Origin: Fistulifera solaris
Lineage: Eukaryota
NCBI GenBank assembly: GCA_030295235.1
Contig: AP026147.1
Location: 744,001-791,902, forward strand
Reading direction: 5' to 3'
Length of the DNA stretch: 47,902 nucleotides
The number at the start of each line of letters is the position of its first letter. The stretch's first letter is position 1. Made by a program: the position numbers and the translations under genes. The notes beneath the pieces are model-generated. The model saw only the letters and a program-made list of their open reading frames with translations, was not told where the DNA came from and did not search any database. Shown here in pieces: positions 18,560-28,663 of this stretch.

Positions 18560-21500
18560 ATGGACGAGAATGCTTCTATAAACTCTTCGAAGGACCCTTT
18601 CGGATTGCTGCGACGGCCTACGCGTGTCAACGTTACATCCGAACGGTCGTCGTTACTTTCTACATCTCAAAATCCTTTGCCTCCTCTTGCGCCGCCGCCG
18701 CCTCTTTTGCTGTCATCGCCCCCGCGTTTACCTCAGACACGGAAATCTTCTCTTCAAAGACATGTAATGGTATCTCCTAATGTACAGAAAGATACGGCGA
18801 AACGAAGACAAACCGAAGAAACGGCTTTTACGAGTCTTTTCACGTCACACACAACAATACCGCAACGCCCAACTTTGAATGGCTCTTTACCGCAGCAAAT
18901 CAATTCTCCGCAGAATTCGGCCGCTTTTTCGCAATTATCAGCAAGTCCTATTGAAGACGCCGATCCGGAAGATAATATACAGGAGGAAGAGGAAGAACAG
19001 CAACAGCAATGGACCCAACAAAAGCCGAATCCTACGCATACTTCACCTCCTCGACGCCCTTCAACGTCATTGCCCTTTCAACAACCGCGACAGCGACTTT
19101 CGTCTTCCGTACATCACGAAGATGCAGTACGAACGGCGCTAGAGCAAGCTATTCAAGCAGCACGGGACGAGGAAGCAGAGCAGTGGCAGCTGCATCTAGA
19201 GCAAGAACGAAAGAATTGGTTGGAGTCTCTGCAACAGCGAGAGCGAGAGTTGCAAGAATACTACACGAACTGGCACAACGAATTAGATCAGCAAGTGACC
19301 CGTTTAAATGAGCAGCAACAGGATATTCAGCAGCAACAGGATGAGCTGCGACAAGAGAAAGAAGCCTGGGTATCGGAGTGGACCCGTCGTGAGGAACAAA
19401 TCAAAGAACTAAGTGACCAAGCTGAAGAAAAACGAAAAAGAGAAGAGGATCTGCTTCAGGGTGCATTGAATAAACGCCAAAATGCCATGGAACGCGCTAC
19501 TTTGCTCGAACAATCGTGCGAACAGGTTCAAGAAGTGCTGGATATGAAAATGAGAGAAGGTCGACAGGCTTACGAAGAACTACTGGTGCAACTGGATGAG
19601 AAGGAATCCGAGCTGCTCTCTGTCAAAGGTCGTATTCAAACTTTCATCACGGAAGATCGCAATGCTACACAGGCAGCGGCGGAACGCCAAATGTTGGCAT
19701 CCGCACAATTGGATGAAACACAACATCGCATCACGGAAGCGCAAAACAAACTAGGAACACTAAATGAGACCGTCCGAGTGCAACAAGAAAGACTTTTAGA
19801 TTTGCAACAGCGATGCCGTGATGAACAAGCCAGGGCAGAAACAACGAAGCAAGAACACAATGTATCGTTGACTAGAGCGCAGCAACGACTCGAAGCGATG
19901 AATGCCGAAATGACAGATCGATGTCGTAAAGTTCAGGACGAGTTAGAGCAACGTCTACAAATTCTTCAAGTGAAAGAAGAGAAGCTATTGACATTGAAAC
20001 GCGAGAGTGCACAAGGACTAGATGACTGGCGTCAGCAGAACGAACAACTATCGCGAGCACGTGCGGAACATGAATCTCGCTTGCGTGAGTGGGATCGCAT
20101 GGAGGAGAGGCACAAAGAGCGAGAAGAAGCGTCGCAACAACAGTCTCGCAAAATTGAGATGTTGCTACGAGACACACAGGCTGAGCTACATCGATCGCAA
20201 GAACAACTTGAATTTGCCAGAAATGAGCAAGACTCTCTTCAGAAAGAGCTTCTAGCATTGAAACGGTCAAGCAAAGACGAAAAAAATCAAGTGGGCCGCC
20301 GAAAAATCGGGTTTGTTGGAGCAGTTAGAGACAACGCAGAAGCAGTTGGAACGGTCGGCTAGCCAGGCTAAGCAATCGGAAGAGGCTATCCAAAAGTTGC
20401 AGAAACAGCGCCAGTCGGCTGACGAGGACAGGCGCCTGATGGATGATTTGCTGAGCAAGATGGAAGAAAATTCCGCATCTTTAGAGAGAAAGCTACAAAA
20501 TGTTCAGTCAGAAAGGACAAAGCTGGTTGCTATTCAAGGGGAGTACGGAGTCCGCATGTCGGCTGTCGAAGTTTTGGTAAGTTCATTACATCAGTATCCG
20601 TGGACACAAGTCGCGGTTGTAGATTCACTAATGATTCGATTTTTGTCTATACGTTAGGAACGAAGTGTCTCTGACGAGAGAGATCGCTTCATGAAAGAAA
20701 AAGAACAGCTGCAGGATTCATGCCGGCAACATCAGCTCGCGGTATTACAGTCTGTTTTGCGACAGCCATGGAGAGAAGAACAAGAAGAACTAAGTGCGGC
20801 ATTTTCGAAATGGGTTCGCGTTGCTTTGTTTGATAACGAACAGGAAGAATTTGAAATAGACCGTCAAAAGTTTCATAATATAATTGAGCGATTACAGCAA
20901 GAGCTCCAAGTCAGCCAACAGCGCCGTCGACAGGAACAGGACATGATGCAAGAGCAGTTCAAACAGTTGGAGGAATCTTTGAGAGAGTCCAATCGGAAGC
21001 AAGCAGAATGGAACCAGGAAGAAAAGACATTGCGGGTTAGAATGGAAACGGCGCACAACCAAGCAGTCAAGCTCAAAGAAGAAAACGCTGTGTTGCTTGA
21101 AAAGCTATCAAAGCTTCAACAGGAAATCTTGCGTGTACAGAAGGAGAACAGTTTGGATACTGCGGAGTTGGAACAAAAGGTTCGCCAGCTGGAGTGTGGA
21201 CAGGATGACATTTTCAAAGAAAAAGAAAAGCTTGCAAGTCGTTCGAAAGGAGTTGGAGATGCTTAAAAAGAACTCGAAAATGTCGATGCTGAGAAGCAAC
21301 GGTTGGTCGAAGCGAATGCCCTTTTAGAACAGAAACTAAGCACTTTTGACTCGGATAACGTCATCCAGGAGAAGCTCTTGCGCTCTGAACCGATGCGCGA
21401 TGATATCGAATTGAAAATGATGCAGCACACAACCAAAATATCTGAGCTTGAGAATGAAATCATCGATCTACGATTAGAAAGGGATACGTTGAAGGAACAA

Positions 21501-21929
21501 CTGAGAGCTTCTACATGTGACTTTACATCAAGCTTTGCCGGCCAATTCCAAAAAGAGTCTAACGCTCGAGTAGCTGAACTTGCAGAGTCCTTAAGCGAAC
21601 GAGAACGCCTTCTGTCTGATCGTGAACGAGACTCGGTTATGCAGATGGAAGCGACACAAAATCGACTGAGACTACTTGCCGAAAAGCTCCGCGAGAAAGA
21701 CCAAGAGCTCGAAAAGCGCGAAAAGCAAATCAAAATGGACATGGAAAAAGGCGAGCTAGCTAACAAAAAGGTTCTGGAACTTGCACAAACGTTGAAGCAG
21801 CAGGCAGCAGACCTTGACCGCGACCGTCAAATTCTAGAGAATCGGATACAAAGTTGTGACTCTTTAGAGAAACAGCTGAATGTTTGGCAGCAACAGTTGG
21901 AAAACACCATTTCCTTGAAGAAAGTTTAG
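18560..21929 (+). CDS. Large coiled-coil protein (~1090 aa) with Pro/Ser-rich disordered N-terminus; intron 20577-20657; frameshifts near 20283 and a compensating pair near 21237/21267
   Basis: Continuous E/Q/K/R/L heptad-rich ORF pieces. A phase-0 81-nt GTAAGT...TTAG intron joins the 20313 and 20691 frames. Confidence 0.75.
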
Positions 21930-22767
21930 TTGCCTTGAGTAGCGGGATATTCTGTGCCACGAGTCGTCTAACAGCAACATTTGGAAGAGTGTAAATTGCG
22001 TAACACTGTCGGTGTCTTTAGCTGTCGATAAAATAGATACGCTGATGGTTATTGCGCAATGCGTCAGCTAGAGTCTAACAATGATAGAATGGACTGCCAG
22101 CTGCCTCTCTAGCCTATCGTCTCTCTTTAGCTAAAAGCTATACGGAGTAGATGATTGTTTAGAGTTCGGAGGAACAACCGTCATCCATCGTCCAAAAAGA
22201 AGAGGGTCATAGACCAGAGATGAGTCACGGAGAAACAATAGGGAGTACAGTGTACATTAGTAGATTTTGGTCATGGTCATCGGCCATCAGTCATTATACC
22301 ATAAAGCATAAGTCAGAAAGAAGTCCTCACTACTCAGATACTCCGTGAAAATTCAACCATCAAATCTCATACTCCGCCTAAACGTATCACAAATCACAAC
22401 CCAAATAACGACAATGCGAAATCCACAAGCTACGACTACAGAGAGCGCACCATTACGCATCAAATCTTCTCACTTCTGGTCGTTCCATTAAAAAAGAAAA
22501 GGTTTCTCGTAGGTCTCGCTAGCGCAAAGTACAGTTGGTGACGCCTTTTGATGCCGTTTCGCCATCCGAAGAGCCCAAGACGTCCGGCGACAAGATGTGA
22601 GACGAGACAAGCGCAAAATGGCAAGTAAAAAAAGCTATTAAAGATACTGTTCTAACCGATTGTTGCACTAACGGATGTATTGGAAGGACGGATAACCGAA
22701 AATATAACGAGAAAGCAAGGCAGAGATTGCTTGATCATGCTGACCTATATGGTTATTTAAGGGTATC

Positions 22768-23343
22768 TTAATCGTCAAGAATGGCGTTGGCTTTGCATTC
22801 GGAGCCCTTCAACGATTCCATACATGCACTGCTGAGCTCTACTTTGAGATGCGAGCTGATAATATCTTCGAGAACTCCAACGCAAGCGATTTCCAAGGAA
22901 GACGCAACAACTGATGTTGACACGTCCGCATCCGCTGCGAGAGGAGAAAGACGTCGGCAATATCCGCACCTGCAGCAGTTGAAAACATACCTGCACTGAT
23001 AGTCACTGTATGAACATACAAAGGCGCAGGTCGGGCCACAGAGTTCGCGTCCTTTCTCGTTAGATTCCGGACGGAGAGCTTCTTCACCATCGGAAAGTTG
23101 ATGCAAGTTGCGTCGATCCTCATCATCTCCTAAGTCCCATTCGGCGCCGCCTCCGAGAACGGAAAGCCCTTTCATCACGGCAGCCAGGGCAGGAACCATA
23201 ACTTCGCTGATAGCAGCACCCTCTTCAGAGGTGCACGTTCCAGGGGCATCGTTGGTGTTAAACCAGGCCACCGACATATCCATTCTGACAGCAGTGCTCA
23301 ATGCGGGCAACAAGAATGTTAGTAGAAAAGAGAGAGAAACCAT
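22768..23343 (-). CDS. Secreted cysteine-rich protein with RxL motifs (191 aa)
   Basis: Signal peptide MVSLSFLLTFLLPALSTA. RRNL, GREL and CRRL motifs flank an 8-Cys segment. The ORF is intact. Confidence 0.75.
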   Translation of the reverse strand: MVSLSFLLTFLLPALSTAVRMDMSVAWFNTNDAPGTCTSEEGAAISEVMVPALAAVMKGLSVLGGGAEWDLGDDEDRRNLHQLSDGEEALRPESNEKGRELCGPTCAFVCSYSDYQCRYVFNCCRCGYCRRLSPLAADADVSTSVVASSLEIACVGVLEDIISSHLKVELSSACMESLKGSECKANAILDD

Positions 23344-24227
23344 GTTTATCTTCGATTGTAAGCGGATATCTGATTTGAAGGAATTGCTTTTAGCAAAGAA
23401 TCTGGATTGTGGGAGGAGATCATCGGAGTCGGGAAGTTTGCAAATTGCATCTCGCACTTCGGCCTTCGGAGTCGGACCTTGAACAAACGAGAGTTTTGTT
23501 AAGCACGTTTCACAATGCGCTGCACGAGTTCGTCAGAATCAACGGGGCTGAGAGTTTAGGAAGCGCAGCGCGTGCGATGGCAAAAGTGTGATAGGTGTTA
23601 TGTCGCTTTGATCGAATCTTTCCAAATCTTTGACACAAATCATGAGCACAAAAGAACAAGTGAGAACAGAGCGATAAGTTCTTATGGTGTCCGGTTTCGG
23701 TAGTGTTTCGTTCCAACGCGATAAGCTGCGAAGTCGAAGGTATCAGTGATTTGCGAATCAATAATTGAGCGCGCGTGCGTCATGCGTCTCACGTCAGGAG
23801 TCCTTAGTAATTGTTGACTCAGCATTATGTGCTAAGAGCAGAGGCACAACTGCGTATTATTTATGCCTGCATTAAGCCCATGGTCAACACGATATTCGAA
23901 ACTCAAAGCATACTGTAGACGAAAGGGGAAATGGTTCAGAATTTAGAACAAACGGATAAGTTGACACGTGATGATTCGTGACTCAGAGTCAGTCAGGTTA
24001 CAACTATGGAGACGAAGAGCTAGCTGGGCTTGGTAAGTGGTTTGAGCAATCAATAAAACCGTACAAAACGTCATCAAGGCAATGATCGTCCGGTAATAAG
24101 TTCGCAGTAGCGCACAAGCAACCCCGCATTGTGTAAGCTCTAACGTTGCTATGATACGCTATGGTACACTTCTTTGTCATACCTAATCCTTATCTAAAAA
24201 GGCCAACTAGAGCTGACTTTTAAAAAT

Positions 24228-25968
24228 TTAGAACTTTCCACCCGTAACAAAGTTTTGAATCATCTGCAAAGAGCGCTTTGGCTGATCTGTTGGGACCATG
24301 TGGCCGGCATCGTAAACTTGCAAAAAGTGAACCCATCCGATGTGCGTGCTTTTCCAACATCAAAATACTCATGAACATCGGCACCTTGAAAGCCTTTTTT
24401 ACCAATCCATTCCAGTTCATAGGTCCATTTTTCTGAAAATTTTGATCTTAATGAGTATAAGCACAAATGGACAACTTCAATAACACGTCAATTGACGTAC
24501 CATTTCCAATATAGTTGCAGATAAAGTCAACATCACCGACGTAAATCAAAGCCGGGTAGCCAGCATTTAACAATTCGGCAACGTATCCCGAGAAATCTTT
24601 CATCCAGTCGGTATGAAACTTCATGTTAATTCCAAAGTTGCATGATTCCCACGTGTGCGAATGCTTCTCGTCCACATGCAATGCCTTTTTCGTCTCTTCC
24701 CGGTTCAAGAAGTTCGAGACGTGCGAAAAGTCATAACAGAGGGGACGGACATCACACTTTTGCGAATATCGTAGGGGTTGAGACCCGTCATCTGATAAGG
24801 ACTGGTCAAGGCGGTGTTGCAAACCAAAAACGCTGTCTGACAGGCAAACGTATTGACAATAGAATCGCCTTCGTTGCACTTTTGAATCAAAGAAACGCAT
24901 CTCGGCACAGCATCTTTCATGGCTTGATAGGTCTCTTTGTCGACGACTTTAATGCCGTGCGAGTTATTCCATACCATGTCAGGATAAGCCGGATACTGCT
25001 TTTCGGGAGACGTCAGTCCATTACCAATGGCAAGACCCGCATAGGGTAGTTGAATAGTTCCATCACGACCTTCCTCATTACCTCGATAAATGCGATGGGA
25101 AATGCTAGGGACTGAAATTGATTCGTTGTATTTGTGAGGAAAACGTTGCAAGAACATGGGGCCCCACTATCTATTTCACTCACCATAATGTCCAGCGTAC
25201 GACTCCCCGACAATGTACAAAGGAGATTCCTGATACTCAGGGTAGGTCTGGAAGAAAGCCTGTAGGAAGTAGTAAGCATCTTCCGCTACCATTTGTTCGT
25301 TTGCATCCGTCTCTTGACCGTAGGAGAAGCCGACCCCCGCCGGTTGATCGAGCCACAAAACGTGTGCTGTTTCAGTCCACGAATGAGGATTGACCGTAGT
25401 GCTTTTCCCGTCTGGATTGACCGAACAAGGTCCATTTTCCGTCAACAACGCCAATGTAGAGGAGCAACCCGGCCCTCCTGTTAACCAAACGATCAAAGGA
25501 ATGGCCCCGTTGTCTTTTTGATGCCGACTCGCGCTTCTCAAACATCCAGAAGAACAAATGCTTGTCTTCCCCGTTCGCATCGTACTCACTACCTTTAATG
25601 TCCATATATCCTGCAATACTCTTGCTCGACGCATCGCAAATATCATCGTGACCTTCATTGACGTGAAGCGAGTGTACTTTATTCTTAAAAACAAACTGAC
25701 TCTTGGCTCGTGCGGCCGGCGTCTGACAATCAAAGACACCCGCCGGCAACTGTTTTGCTTGCTCGTGACTCATGCATTCTGAAGGAATCGCTCCTGCTTC
25801 ACACCATTCGCAACGTTCTCCGGTAGTTTCGTCGATCGTCTTGACACACGAGGTCGAATCGGTCGCTTGATTGCACGATGATTCGGGAAAAGAAGACCGC
25901 AACGACGAAGCAGTTGCTGCGGAAGCCGTCAAAAGGCTGTAAGCGGAGAAAAACGAACCAAATTTCAT
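24228..25968 (-). CDS. Serine carboxypeptidase, family S10; introns 25112-25183 and 24433-24500; frameshifts near 25517, 24758, 24324
   Basis: Signal peptide, WLTGGPGCSS, DQPAGVGFSY, GESYAGHYVP (catalytic Ser), GDVDFICN (Asp) and VYDAGHMVP.DQP (His) after splicing and frame repair. Stop TAA at 24228-24230. Confidence 0.93.
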
Positions 25969-26369: not shown

Positions 26370-27044
26370 TTACGCCATAGCTGCAGCGCAAGATCGTTGA
26401 GGCTCTAGCAAGACAAATTCCTCTTCCATAGAATGCATGAGAGGTAACAACCGAGCTCGGTTGTAGATAAGCCAGTCTTGACAAGCTTGGGCTGCTGTGT
26501 CAATGTAAAGATGCGAGTAAATGTGTCCCATGTTGTTCATTATGGCGAATTGCATGATTTCACTCGAAGGGAGAGTGCCTTGGCAAAGCTGGTAGAGTTG
26601 CAGTGTCTTATGATACAGAACGGTAGAATTCAGTTGGATGGCTTGCTGATGATGTAAAAGTGCGAGATTGTATAAAAGCACTGCGGCGGACACATTTGGG
26701 CTCGCTCGTTTCGAAAAGCGCATTGCTCGCTGACAGAAAACAAATACGCCATTGGGTGATACAACACCGAGTTCACTTCCGTCGACAAGAGGAGTCAATT
26801 GACTAACAATCGAGCACTCGCTATCCGTCGCAATAACTTCCTTTGATCGCATCATCTCTTGTATTACACCGAGACCTCGCTGAAAACATTGCATTGCTTG
26901 TTTTGTTTGATGCGTTTGAAGAAAGGCGATAGCTCGATTGTTCAAAGACTCCACGTCGAGCTCATTCGGTTGCGATATTTGTTGATACCGAGCACGAGGT
27001 GGCTTCAACGAAGCAGTGCGCGCGGATGGAGTTGCTTTCATCAT
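26370..27044 (-). CDS. TPR-like helical protein (paralog A)
   Basis: LNNRAIAFL..A..CFQRGL, AVLLYNLALLHH and IMNNMGHIY TPR-like motifs. ATG at 27044 or 27041. Confidence 0.7.
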   Translation of the reverse strand: MMKATPSARTASLKPPRARYQQISQPNELDVESLNNRAIAFLQTHQTKQAMQCFQRGLGVIQEMMRSKEVIATDSECSIVSQLTPLVDGSELGVVSPNGVFVFCQRAMRFSKRASPNVSAAVLLYNLALLHHQQAIQLNSTVLYHKTLQLYQLCQGTLPSSEIMQFAIMNNMGHIYSHLYIDTAAQACQDWLIYNRARLLPLMHSMEEEFVLLEPQRSCAAAMA

Positions 27045-27989
27045 GGCAAAAGAATGAATTAGGAGATCTAAATTGTTTGTGTGCATTTGGACGATGAAAG
27101 AATAACGTTTGGTCAAAAGTCGCCTCGTGTTTTTACGTCTAAAAAAGCCTCCTAAAGCCAAATGAACTAAAAAGTACTGAAACCAAGAAGCTTTATTAAG
27201 CCCGAGACCAAGACTCCTCCTTCCTCCTTCCTCCTCAAGGAAAAACGAAGAGATTGTCGGATACAGTAGAGTAGCTTTACTGAGGGGAGAGGGAGAAACT
27301 CTCCCAGCTTCAACTTTCAATCACAAGGATCGAAGATCGAAGCAAAGAAACGAGACAAGTTAACACCTATTTGGTATAGCGGAATCCAGTGATATGTGAT
27401 ATTATCTTTTCGTTACAAAATAAGGCTTCTTTTTTAATTATTGCTTTCATTCACGAACACGGCGATTGTTTAACTTCGATGCGTGCGTATTTCGTTATCT
27501 GTTCTTCGTTTCTTAGAAGGTACATTACACGGTCTACGTGTTACTGAAGTTAATGTCAAGTAGTTCCGAAGAATCTAGAAGAATCATCTTGGAAAGGTCT
27601 GCCGGTAATGCCGAAAGCTAAAGCCAGAAGCCGTAAAGGCCTGGCTTCTTGCTTCATGGTCATGCTACTCCGTACTCCGTAAGGTCCGTAGACTGAATTG
27701 CTAAGGTTAGGTTAGAACTCCAATCCAATTCCAGAATGAATCATGATTCTATGGTAAATACTAACGACCTCACACTCACCTCACGCTCCTATTGTTGATT
27801 GATTACTTGAAATTTTCATTTTTGCATCTTTGGGGCGACGACTCGGAAATGTCTTTCAATGAGCTGTGGAAAATGGAATTACAGGCAAGAAAACTAAAAT
27901 TACATTAGTACATTTGGCGAGCCTCTTTCAAAGAGCGTGATTAGTCGATGGTCCAAAAACGAATTAGCCAGCAGTTCATGTCTCCTGAA

Positions 27990-28663
27990 TCATGCTCCTG
28001 GGGCAGCTATGAGCACCGTGTTCATCACAAAGTCCTCCGGGGCTACAAAAGATACGTAACGTGCCCTATTCTTGAGCAGTGATTGTAGGCAAAATGTAGC
28101 GCGATCGAATTGAAAAAGATGGGAGCTGACATGTCCCAAATTGTTCCATAAGGCAAAATGATAAGCAGCACTTTGATTTGTAGCTGCCGTAGCTGTCTTC
28201 TGAGATAAGATGTAGAATTTAGCCGCTGTTTTGTAAAGGTCGGTTCGCTTGCATTGGATTGCTTGACGATGGTATACCAGGCCCATATTGTACAAGACGA
28301 CAGCAGTCGCACATTGTTCATCATTAACGGAATGAAGGAGGAGAGACCGATTGAAAAGACAAAGGAACCCTCGGGTGAAACACAATCTTCGTTTTGTTCG
28401 ATCTCGGGGGCGCCGTGGCATTCAATAGCTGCTGTGCCAAAATGGAAATTTCTAGATATCTTCTTGGTAGAGGAAAGAATAAGGCGAAGGCTCCTTTTCA
28501 AGCACGCGACGGCCTGCCGTGATTGACCAGCATATAGTAAAGCGACAAATTCATGGGTCGCTTCCTTTAGTGTCCTGCAACGCTTTCTAGAGCTCATTAC
28601 TCCCACCCTGTCGTAACTTGTCAAAGTGGAGACCGAGACGATACTTTCATAGTTCAAATTCAT
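27990..28663 (-). CDS. TPR-like helical protein (paralog B; frameshift near 28355)
   Basis: Co-linear with paralog A: VSPEGSFVF vs VSPNGVFVF, AVVLYNMGLVYHRQAIQ vs AVLLYNLALLHHQQAIQ, NNLGHV vs NNMGHI, and NRAR in both. Confidence 0.7.

What the first reader, a model, noticed from the sequence alone, without database searches (positions are those of the whole stretch)
22768..23343. Candidate precursor of an excisable 8-cysteine peptide boxed by RxL sites
Seen: signal peptide, acidic spacer, RRNL, then GREL-CGPTCAFVCSYSDYQCRYVFNCCRCGYC-RRL. The core is 28 aa, starts and ends exactly on Cys, and has 8 Cys plus 5 aromatics. The flanks carry four more Cys that could pair. Known: RxL motifs mark proteolytic processing sites in diatom secreted precursors such as silaffins and silacidins. 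Inference: processing could release a four-disulfide mini-peptide with a defence, signalling or metal-binding role, an undescribed peptide family.
Basis: partly seen in the sequence, partly recalled or inferred. Interest (0 to 1): 0.7.

Follow-up and report, generated by a model that had tools for sequence, protein, structure and literature searches.

The report
Diatom precursor with buried eight-cysteine peptide
A transcribed diatom gene encodes a small, likely secreted protein whose 28-residue, eight-cysteine segment sits between conserved Arg-x-Leu motifs inside a predicted folded domain and is probably cut out as a disulfide-rich peptide, though no cutting or function has been shown.

Summary
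The gene is real: a 191-aa single-exon ORF covered by a polyadenylated contig. The core is 28 aa with 8 Cys and 6 aromatics (not 5). In 12 of 12 members of its branch the core is bracketed by REL and RRL. It is conserved rather than hypervariable; the spacer before it is the fast-evolving part. It is the 8-Cys branch of a diatom family with no Pfam match (hhalign 97.4% to 14 four-Cys paralogues in the same genome). Across 44 sequences the core holds 4, 6 or 8 Cys, always an even number, while the flanks keep 1+3 Cys. AlphaFold folds the two flanks into one alpha/beta domain with the core as a loop insert. One relative lacks C37 and C174 together, which suggests an inter-flank disulfide. Best reading (0.45): RxL cuts release a ~3.2-3.6 kDa four-disulfide peptide and leave a two-chain scaffold. 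Cleavage, protease and function are untested. This scan already reported the 4-Cys branch (and apparently a 6-Cys one) on other DNA. My literature searches found no description of the family.

The parts
22727..23367 (-). Unspliced, polyadenylated transcript contig covering the whole ORF; poly-A site at about 22727
   Evidence: run X3 record 18 with poly-T loose end; X4 record 23 also ends at 22727; an X2 contig reaches 23421
22768..23343 (-). Single-exon ORF, 191 aa, 12 Cys (P0001)
23290..23343 (-). Likely signal peptide, about aa 1-18 (cleavage site not determined)
   Evidence: hydropathy only
23116..23289 (-). N-flank aa 19-76: predicted strand 21-28, helix 39-59, short strand 62-64; one Cys (C37), conserved W69, acidic end
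23104..23115 (-). RRNL motif (aa 77-80), candidate cut site 1
   Evidence: R78 in 46 of 46 rows, L80 in 44 of 46
23050..23103 (-). Acidic spacer aa 81-98, the fastest-evolving part
   Evidence: 31% identity; dN 0.37, dS 0.18 between homoeologs
23041..23049 (-). REL motif (aa 99-101), candidate cut site 2, directly before the first core Cys
   Evidence: 12 of 12 in the 8-Cys branch
22957..23040 (-). 28-aa core C102-C129: 8 Cys, 6 aromatics, net charge +1; 3,207.6 Da average mass if four disulfides form
22948..22956 (-). RRL motif (aa 130-132), candidate cut site 3; both models place a low-confidence strand here
22771..22947 (-). C-flank aa 133-191: predicted helices 143-163 and 172-179, strand 182-189; C154, C174, C183

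Best explanation
The gene is transcribed and encodes a likely secreted precursor in which a conserved eight-cysteine segment is inserted into a loop of a predicted alpha/beta domain, and a secretory-pathway protease probably cuts the three RxL motifs to release that segment as a four-disulfide peptide. Proposed steps: (1) ER import and oxidative folding (inferred). (2) The flanks fold into one ferredoxin-like domain, with C154-C183 within the C-flank and C37-C174 joining the two flanks, and the core forms its own four disulfides (predicted). (3) Cuts after RRNL, REL and RRL drop the acidic spacer and free a 28-31 aa peptide of 3.2-3.6 kDa, leaving a disulfide-linked two-chain scaffold (inferred from silaffin processing). 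(4) The rigid, aromatic-rich, mildly basic peptide most likely works outside the cell by binding a protein partner, as a signal or a defence agent, and the scaffold serves as its folding and carrying frame (inference; the weakest step).
For: Shown: transcript. Motifs are conserved while the spacer between them drifts: REL and RRL 100% identical, spacer 31%; spacer dN 0.37 against core dN 0.053 and flanks 0.03-0.06. Core Cys count is always even, 4 in 31, 6 in 1 and 8 in 12 of 44 unique sequences, while flanks are 1+3 in 40 of 44, so the core varies as a self-contained module. P0018 is the only one of 46 rows lacking C37 and the only one lacking C174; P0024 and P0025 gain one Cys in each flank. 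Homology of the 8-Cys and 4-Cys branches: hhalign 97.4%, E 1.5e-11, 153 columns; the 8-Cys profile alone finds a 4-Cys member at E 6.5e-6 among 1.84 billion proteins. Predicted: in the 46-sequence model, 10-residue blocks score pLDDT 70-80 over aa 21-60 and 76-90 over aa 141-190, while 64-110 and 122-137 are under 50. Fold matches align residues from both flanks to single ferredoxin-like domains. Literature: mature silaffins lack their RRIL/RRNL ends and RXL is proposed as a general diatom endopeptidase site (PMC4557024, passages). SEA domains are ferredoxin-like, are cut in the beta2-beta3 loop and stay associated (PMC6954182, passages).
Against: No protein-level evidence of cleavage. PMC5647440 says the processing role of RXL 'remains to be proven', and PMC5525289 calls the protease unknown (passages). 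Both models put a strand on the RRL itself (128-136 and 130-134), so that motif might be structural, though pLDDT there is under 50. The core shows purifying rather than diversifying selection, which does not fit an arms-race toxin; this rests on one homoeolog pair with few sites. The third motif is not RxL in 3 of 44 sequences. The C37-C174 pairing rests on one lineage on a long branch, and one relative (P0019) has an odd Cys total. All fold matches are generic (best Z 7.2 and 6.3, none at 8 or more). The signal peptide was judged by hydropathy only.
Confidence: 0.45

Rival explanations
1. The protein works intact, or is nicked only at the spacer. The Cys-rich core is a variable binding head displayed on the alpha/beta domain, and the RRL after it is kept for structural reasons.
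For: Both models place a strand over RRL130-132. The flanks are as conserved as the core. The third site is altered in 3 of 44 sequences. No cleavage is shown.
Against: REL directly abuts C102 and RRL directly follows C129 in 12 of 12 branch members, while the spacer between the first two motifs drifts in sequence and length. The strand lies in a region with pLDDT under 50. Two or more upstream RxL motifs are kept in 17 of 44 sequences.
Confidence: 0.23
2. The precursor is cut, but the two-chain scaffold is the active product (proinsulin-like), or the three pieces stay together as one complex, as cleaved SEA domains do.
For: The scaffold Cys pattern, W69 and N29 are nearly invariant across branches whose cores differ. 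Cleaved SEA domains remain associated (PMC6954182, passages).
Against: The core carries the branch-specific disulfide gains and is strongly conserved in its C-terminal half (77% non-Cys identity), which is unlike a throw-away connecting peptide.
Confidence: 0.15
3. It is a cell-wall or silica-deposition-vesicle protein, processed like other RXL proteins and acting in frustule formation.
For: RXL sites were described mainly in biosilica-associated proteins (PMC5647440, PMC5525289, passages). Cys-rich folded RXL proteins exist there (silicanin, SiMat7-like).
Against: The sequence shows no Ser/Lys-rich silaffin repeats, no NQ-rich domain and no C-terminal membrane anchor.
Confidence: 0.1
4. The core is a metal-binding (metallothionein- or zinc-finger-like) module with free thiols.
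For: 8 Cys in 28 aa, including CC and CxC.
Against: A secretory route favours disulfides (established knowledge). The Cys count changes in steps of two between branches. Six aromatics are unlike metallothioneins (recalled). No Pfam match for P0001.
Confidence: 0.07

Closest known systems
Diatom RXL-processed precursors: silaffin Sil1p, silacidins, cingulins, frustulins (PMC4557024, passages)
   Same: Signal peptide; RRNL/RRL-type motifs that bracket a short peptide.
   Different: Those release repeated, unfolded, Ser/Lys- or acid-rich peptides with one or no Cys (PMC5525289, passages). Here one disulfide-rich peptide sits inside a predicted folded, Cys-linked domain.
Silicanin-1 / SiMat7-like family (PMC5525289, passages; PMC5501833, section 7)
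   Same: Signal peptide, RXL site, conserved Cys, folded lumenal region.
   Different: They have an N-terminal RXL pro-domain and a C-terminal transmembrane helix, and Sin1 has a 341-aa NQ-rich domain. This protein is 191 aa with three internal sites and no C-terminal anchor. I could not align it to their sequences.
SEA domains of Mucin-1, Notch-2 and GPR126 (PMC6954182, passages)
   Same: Ferredoxin-like fold; cut in the beta2-beta3 loop with the halves staying together. In my model the insert lies between the second and third strand.
   Different: Structural match is weak and generic (Gpr126 6v55_A Z 5.1, rmsd 4.1, 103 aligned; mucin-16 SEA 1ivz Z 4.2, rmsd 5.8, 112 aligned). No GSVVV motif in the sequence. 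An excised Cys-rich peptide is not described for SEA domains in the passages read.
Plant buried peptides: vicilin-buried peptides and PawS1/SFTI-1 (bioRxiv 10.1101/2020.05.26.118075, passages)
   Same: A disulfide-rich peptide excised from within the precursor of another protein. The core has CxxxC spacing and two short predicted helices.
   Different: Plant peptides are cut by asparaginyl endopeptidase, have 4 Cys in paired CXXXC motifs and few aromatics. This is an analogy; no homology was shown.
Deposited Fistulifera solaris hypothetical proteins, e.g. GAX14771.1 and GAX14767.1 (UniRef auto-name 'Saposin B-type domain-containing')
   Same: Same family, 4-Cys branch.
   Different: Their core has 4 Cys, not 8. 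The saposin label is not backed by Pfam or by the alpha/beta model.

Membership tests
Diatom RXL-processed precursors (silaffin/silacidin type) | N-terminal signal peptide | tested here: met
   Hydropathy only: 2.57 in P0001; 41 of 44 family sequences at 2.0 or more. No SignalP run.
Diatom RXL-processed precursors (silaffin/silacidin type) | Conserved RXL motifs at peptide boundaries | tested here: met
Diatom RXL-processed precursors (silaffin/silacidin type) | Repeated, unfolded Ser/Lys-rich or acidic peptide units | tested here: not met
   One Cys-rich core, no repeats in the sequence; flanks predicted folded
Diatom RXL-processed precursors (silaffin/silacidin type) | Cleavage shown at protein level; association with silica | not testable with these tools
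   Needs peptidomics and localisation
Silicanin / SiMat7-like | C-terminal transmembrane helix and cytosolic tail | tested here: not met
   The protein ends in a predicted strand and acidic residues. The best 19-residue hydropathy after the signal is a borderline 1.63 in an internal helix modelled as part of the domain; the 4-Cys branch scores at most 1.34.
Silicanin / SiMat7-like | Sequence homology to Sin1/SiMat7 | not tested
   Their sequences were not fetched; no hit carried such a name
Saposin B-type domain (automatic UniRef name of relatives) | Match to a saposin profile; all-helical fold (fold recalled) | tested here: not met
   No Pfam family for P0027, P0028, P0030 at E up to 10; both models of P0001 are alpha/beta. 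PROSITE itself was not available.
SEA domain | Ferredoxin-like fold superposing on solved SEA domains | tested here: inconclusive
   Z 5.1 (rmsd 4.1, 103 aligned) and Z 4.2 (rmsd 5.8, 112 aligned), below unrelated ferredoxin-like folds at Z 6.3
SEA domain | Pfam SEA match or GSVVV autoproteolysis motif | tested here: not met
   No Pfam hit; motif absent from the sequence
Vicilin-buried peptides / alpha-hairpinins | Paired CXXXC motifs, four Cys, location in a vicilin precursor | tested here: not met
   Core spacing is C-x3-C-x3-C-x6-C-x5-CC-x-C-x2-C in a non-vicilin precursor
Unnamed diatom RxL/Cys-insert family (4-Cys branch on contigs C11, C15-C19 of G000) | Full-length homology with shared scaffold Cys, Trp and RxL motifs | tested here: met
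   hhalign 97.4%, E 1.5e-11; P0020 finds this gene at E 2.1e-5 in G000; alignment A8

The most novel reading that the evidence does not exclude
Diatoms run a modular peptide-release system: a ferredoxin/SEA-like domain, stapled by an inter-chain disulfide, carries an exchangeable two-, three- or four-disulfide peptide in its beta2-beta3 loop, and the RXL protease known from silica proteins cuts it out to act as an extracellular signal or defence peptide. These would be gene-encoded disulfide-rich peptide hormones or defensin-like agents of a kind I found no report of in diatoms.
Probability: 0.3. Interest if true: 0.75.

Novelty: new variant of a known kind. Interest (0 to 1): 0.5.

Why it matters
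If the core is released, RXL processing reaches beyond silica-forming repeats to compact disulfide-rich peptides. Diatoms would then have a gene-encoded peptide family open to direct test by peptidomics; the one peptide sex-inducing pheromone in the review passages I read is a cyclic heptapeptide (PMC12352721). The protein also offers a clean three-site reporter for finding the RXL protease, which PMC5525289 calls unknown, and a new 28-residue four-disulfide framework. The value is moderated because function is untested and the wider family was already flagged by this scan on other DNA.

Tried and rejected
Family libraries. Pfam: no family for P0001 at E up to 1; 4 single, sub-threshold hits among 21 members; nothing over threshold for 6 relatives. 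NCBIfam: 0 of 3 proteins. PDB sequences: one hit at E 1.6. ESM Atlas: best feature score 0.80 for P0001, nothing usable for P0030, best TM 0.49-0.52; these blanks show neither novelty nor absence. Foldseek PDB: no match at E 0.001 or better. VIA-align: none at Z 8 or more for either model. Complex prediction of the core against the two flanks: no answer, score 0.02, alignments not used, controls not folded; not used as evidence. JGI metagenome contigs: 89 pattern matches, none confirmed, so synteny with the neighbouring carboxypeptidase could not be tested outside G000. DNA patterns in G000 were at chance level: 55 against 59 control and 25 against 36; the A8 profile found no further member in loci L020-L074 or elsewhere in the window. 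Site-1 protease idea: PF23090 rang nowhere, controls included, so it is uninformative; PF00082 gave 40 matches in G000, none assigned to this substrate. No run is on record as RNA; RNA status is inferred from splicing and poly-A. Rows dropped: P0014 (reading apparently shifted across the core) and P0015 (repetitive insect protein, judged a false hit) were left out of all counts. P0017 (8 Cys in a differently spaced core, no C-flank) was used in alignments A4, A5 and A7 and in the tree but not in the 44-sequence counts. Cluster mates P0016, P0021, P0023 and P0040-P0045, longer models P0009 and P0010, and the short L011 frame were not counted. The tree is the quick version; the careful search did not finish. 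'Hypervariable toxin-like core' was rejected, as was the saposin label. Literature searches with no description of this family: (open-access full text only; one search was for the plant analogy). Supplements of PMC5501833 were not opened and might list related genes.

Full report
Observation. The minus-strand ORF at 22768-23343 encodes 191 aa. The three R-x-L matches in the protein are at R78, R99 and R130, and the last two abut the block. In 20,000 shuffles the Cys density arose 18 times, the box 24 times and both together 0 times. The gene is expressed: a contig from run X3 spans 22727-23367 with no gap or difference and ends in poly-A on the minus strand, and runs X2-X4 splice the neighbouring gene's introns. 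The four runs are from one study and are not on record as RNA.

Organism and copies. G000 holds a second copy at 85% identity on contig C35 with the same neighbours, consistent with a homoeolog. One paralogue in G000 is identical to a deposited Fistulifera solaris hypothetical protein in the trimmed tree alignment, so this is a Fistulifera-type pennate diatom.

The 8-Cys branch. Two database searches gave 11 proteins. P0014 was dropped because it loses the core reading; the other ten plus the window gene and its homoeolog make 12. All 12 have REL directly before and RRL directly after an 8-Cys core, and 11 have RRxL upstream. Pairwise identity without Cys (11-row alignment A3) is 63% in the N-flank, 31% in the spacer, 55% in the core (39% in the first half, 77% in the second) and 61% in the C-flank. 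Between the two homoeologs dN/dS is 0.078/0.275 overall, 0.053/0.82 in the core and 0.37/0.18 in the spacer; these rest on few sites. The core is therefore conserved, not hypervariable. The 12 form one side of a branch with SH-aLRT 95 in a quick tree.

The wider family. The branch profile against 1.84 billion representatives returned 7 hits: two branch members, one repetitive false hit, and four distant proteins with the same layout but different cores. One of these, via its cluster mate P0020, finds 19 matches in G000, mostly clustered on C15-C18, and also this gene at E 2.1e-5. The profile of 14 such paralogues aligns with the 8-Cys profile at 97.4% probability, E 1.5e-11, over 153 columns. 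In the joint alignment (46 rows, 44 unique) the core has 4 Cys in 31, 6 in 1 and 8 in 12 sequences. The flanks carry one plus three Cys in 40 of 44. RxL follows the core in 41 and precedes it in 43 of 44. P0018 is the only row without C37 and the only row without C174, which points to pairs C37-C174 (between the flanks) and C154-C183; this is one lineage on a long branch. P0024 and P0025 gain one Cys in each flank; P0019 has an odd total. Earlier notes of this scan describe the 4-Cys clusters in this genome and a 6-Cys cluster in another. I re-derived the 4-Cys branch and its homology myself but did not see their loci, and their agreement is not independent evidence. A sequence look-up of P0001 in those notes found nothing.

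Structure. AlphaFold2 with 11 sequences (pTM 0.56) and 46 sequences (pTM 0.60) gives strand-helix-(strand) in the N-flank and helix-helix-strand in the C-flank, with 10-residue blocks at pLDDT 70-90 in the better model. The spacer and most of the core are under 50. Fold searches align both flanks together onto single ferredoxin-like domains, but only generically: best Z 7.2 (rmsd 3.3, 107 aligned) and Z 6.3 (rmsd 3.8, 104 aligned), with no Foldseek hit. SEA-containing chains appear low in the list (Gpr126 Z 5.1, mucin-16 SEA Z 4.2). The insert lies between the second and third strand, the loop in which SEA domains are cut while their halves stay together (PMC6954182, passages). This is a resemblance in working, not membership. 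Against my reading, both models put the third strand on the RRL itself, although at low confidence.

Mechanism. Mature silaffins lack their RRIL/RRNL ends and RXL is proposed as a general site of a diatom endopeptidase (PMC4557024, passages). The role is described as unproven (PMC5647440, passages) and the protease as unknown (PMC5525289, passages). Applied here, cuts after L80, L101 and L132 would drop the acidic spacer and free C102-C129 (3,207.6 Da with four disulfides; 3,633.2 Da if RRL stays). Two ~6 kDa chains would remain, joined by C37-C174. I put processing at all three sites at about 0.55-0.6, and the full reading, with the peptide as an extracellular ligand, at 0.45. Shown: sequence, transcript, conservation, homology. 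Predicted: secretion, fold, disulfides. Inferred: cleavage and function. Rivals: an intact or partly nicked protein (0.23), scaffold or three-piece complex as the active form (0.15), a frustule role (0.10), metal binding (0.07). G000 has 40 subtilase matches; a search for a site-1 protease domain was uninformative.

Known kinds. It works like RXL-processed diatom precursors and like plant buried peptides (bioRxiv 10.1101/2020.05.26.118075, passages). It fails membership of silaffins/silacidins (no unfolded repeats) and of silicanin/SiMat7-like proteins (no C-terminal membrane helix; PMC5501833 section 7). It also fails membership of saposins and of vicilin-buried peptides. Pfam, NCBIfam, PDB and Atlas searches name no family. 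Nine literature searches of open-access full text found no description of the family. Passages of PMC12352721 give a cyclic heptapeptide pheromone as the precedent for diatom peptide signals, with no precursor mentioned. Passages of bioRxiv 10.1101/2024.04.15.589526 and PMC10328945 added nothing on this family. Subscription papers and supplements were not seen.

Verdict. A real, expressed gene; the 8-Cys branch of a diatom family, undescribed in the searches above, in which an even-Cys peptide is boxed by RxL motifs inside a conserved folded domain. New variant of a known kind; interest 0.5. The boldest reading, a modular peptide-release system for diatom signals or defence agents, has probability 0.3 and would deserve 0.75.

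Noticed in passing
L002:1375-2073 (-) = G000:C35: The homoeolog (85% identical) has a Gln codon where this gene has its stop, giving a 41-aa C-terminal extension with two more Cys. A genomic-type contig of run X1 agrees with the assembly there, and the extension overlaps the poly-A end of the opposite-strand neighbour.
   Followed up: partly
window 24170-25968 (-): The upstream neighbour is a spliced, polyadenylated serine carboxypeptidase (Peptidase_S10, E 6.7e-11) with a hydrophobic N-terminus. Enzymes of this family trim basic residues after endoproteolysis in yeast (Kex1, recalled), but the adjacency may be chance. It is also beside the homoeolog; wider synteny was not testable.
   Followed up: partly
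window 21226, 21264, 22497, 22627, 24321, 24757, 25515: Single-base indels between the window and the run contigs. Those at 24757 and 25515 (seen in 3 and 4 runs) and at 21226/21264 fall in coding regions and explain split ORFs, so they are probably assembly errors. None lies in the finding's ORF.
   Followed up: partly
window 18560-21929 (+): A long Glu/Gln-rich, coiled-coil-like gene in several ORFs, no Pfam match for the first; similar ORFs at 38736-45578.
   Followed up: no
window 26370-28663 (-): Two adjacent ORFs with a similar TPR-like pattern; the first matches TPR_1 at E 9.3e-7.
   Followed up: no
G000:C8:156685-156918 and C7:217261-217449: Apparently decayed copies of the 4-Cys branch; the C8 match holds three stops.
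   Followed up: no
proteins P0005/P0008 and P0006/P0014: Each pair lists the same longest-contig length (6467 and 5177), which suggests tandem 8-Cys genes in other diatoms; P0014 appears frameshifted across the core.
   Followed up: no
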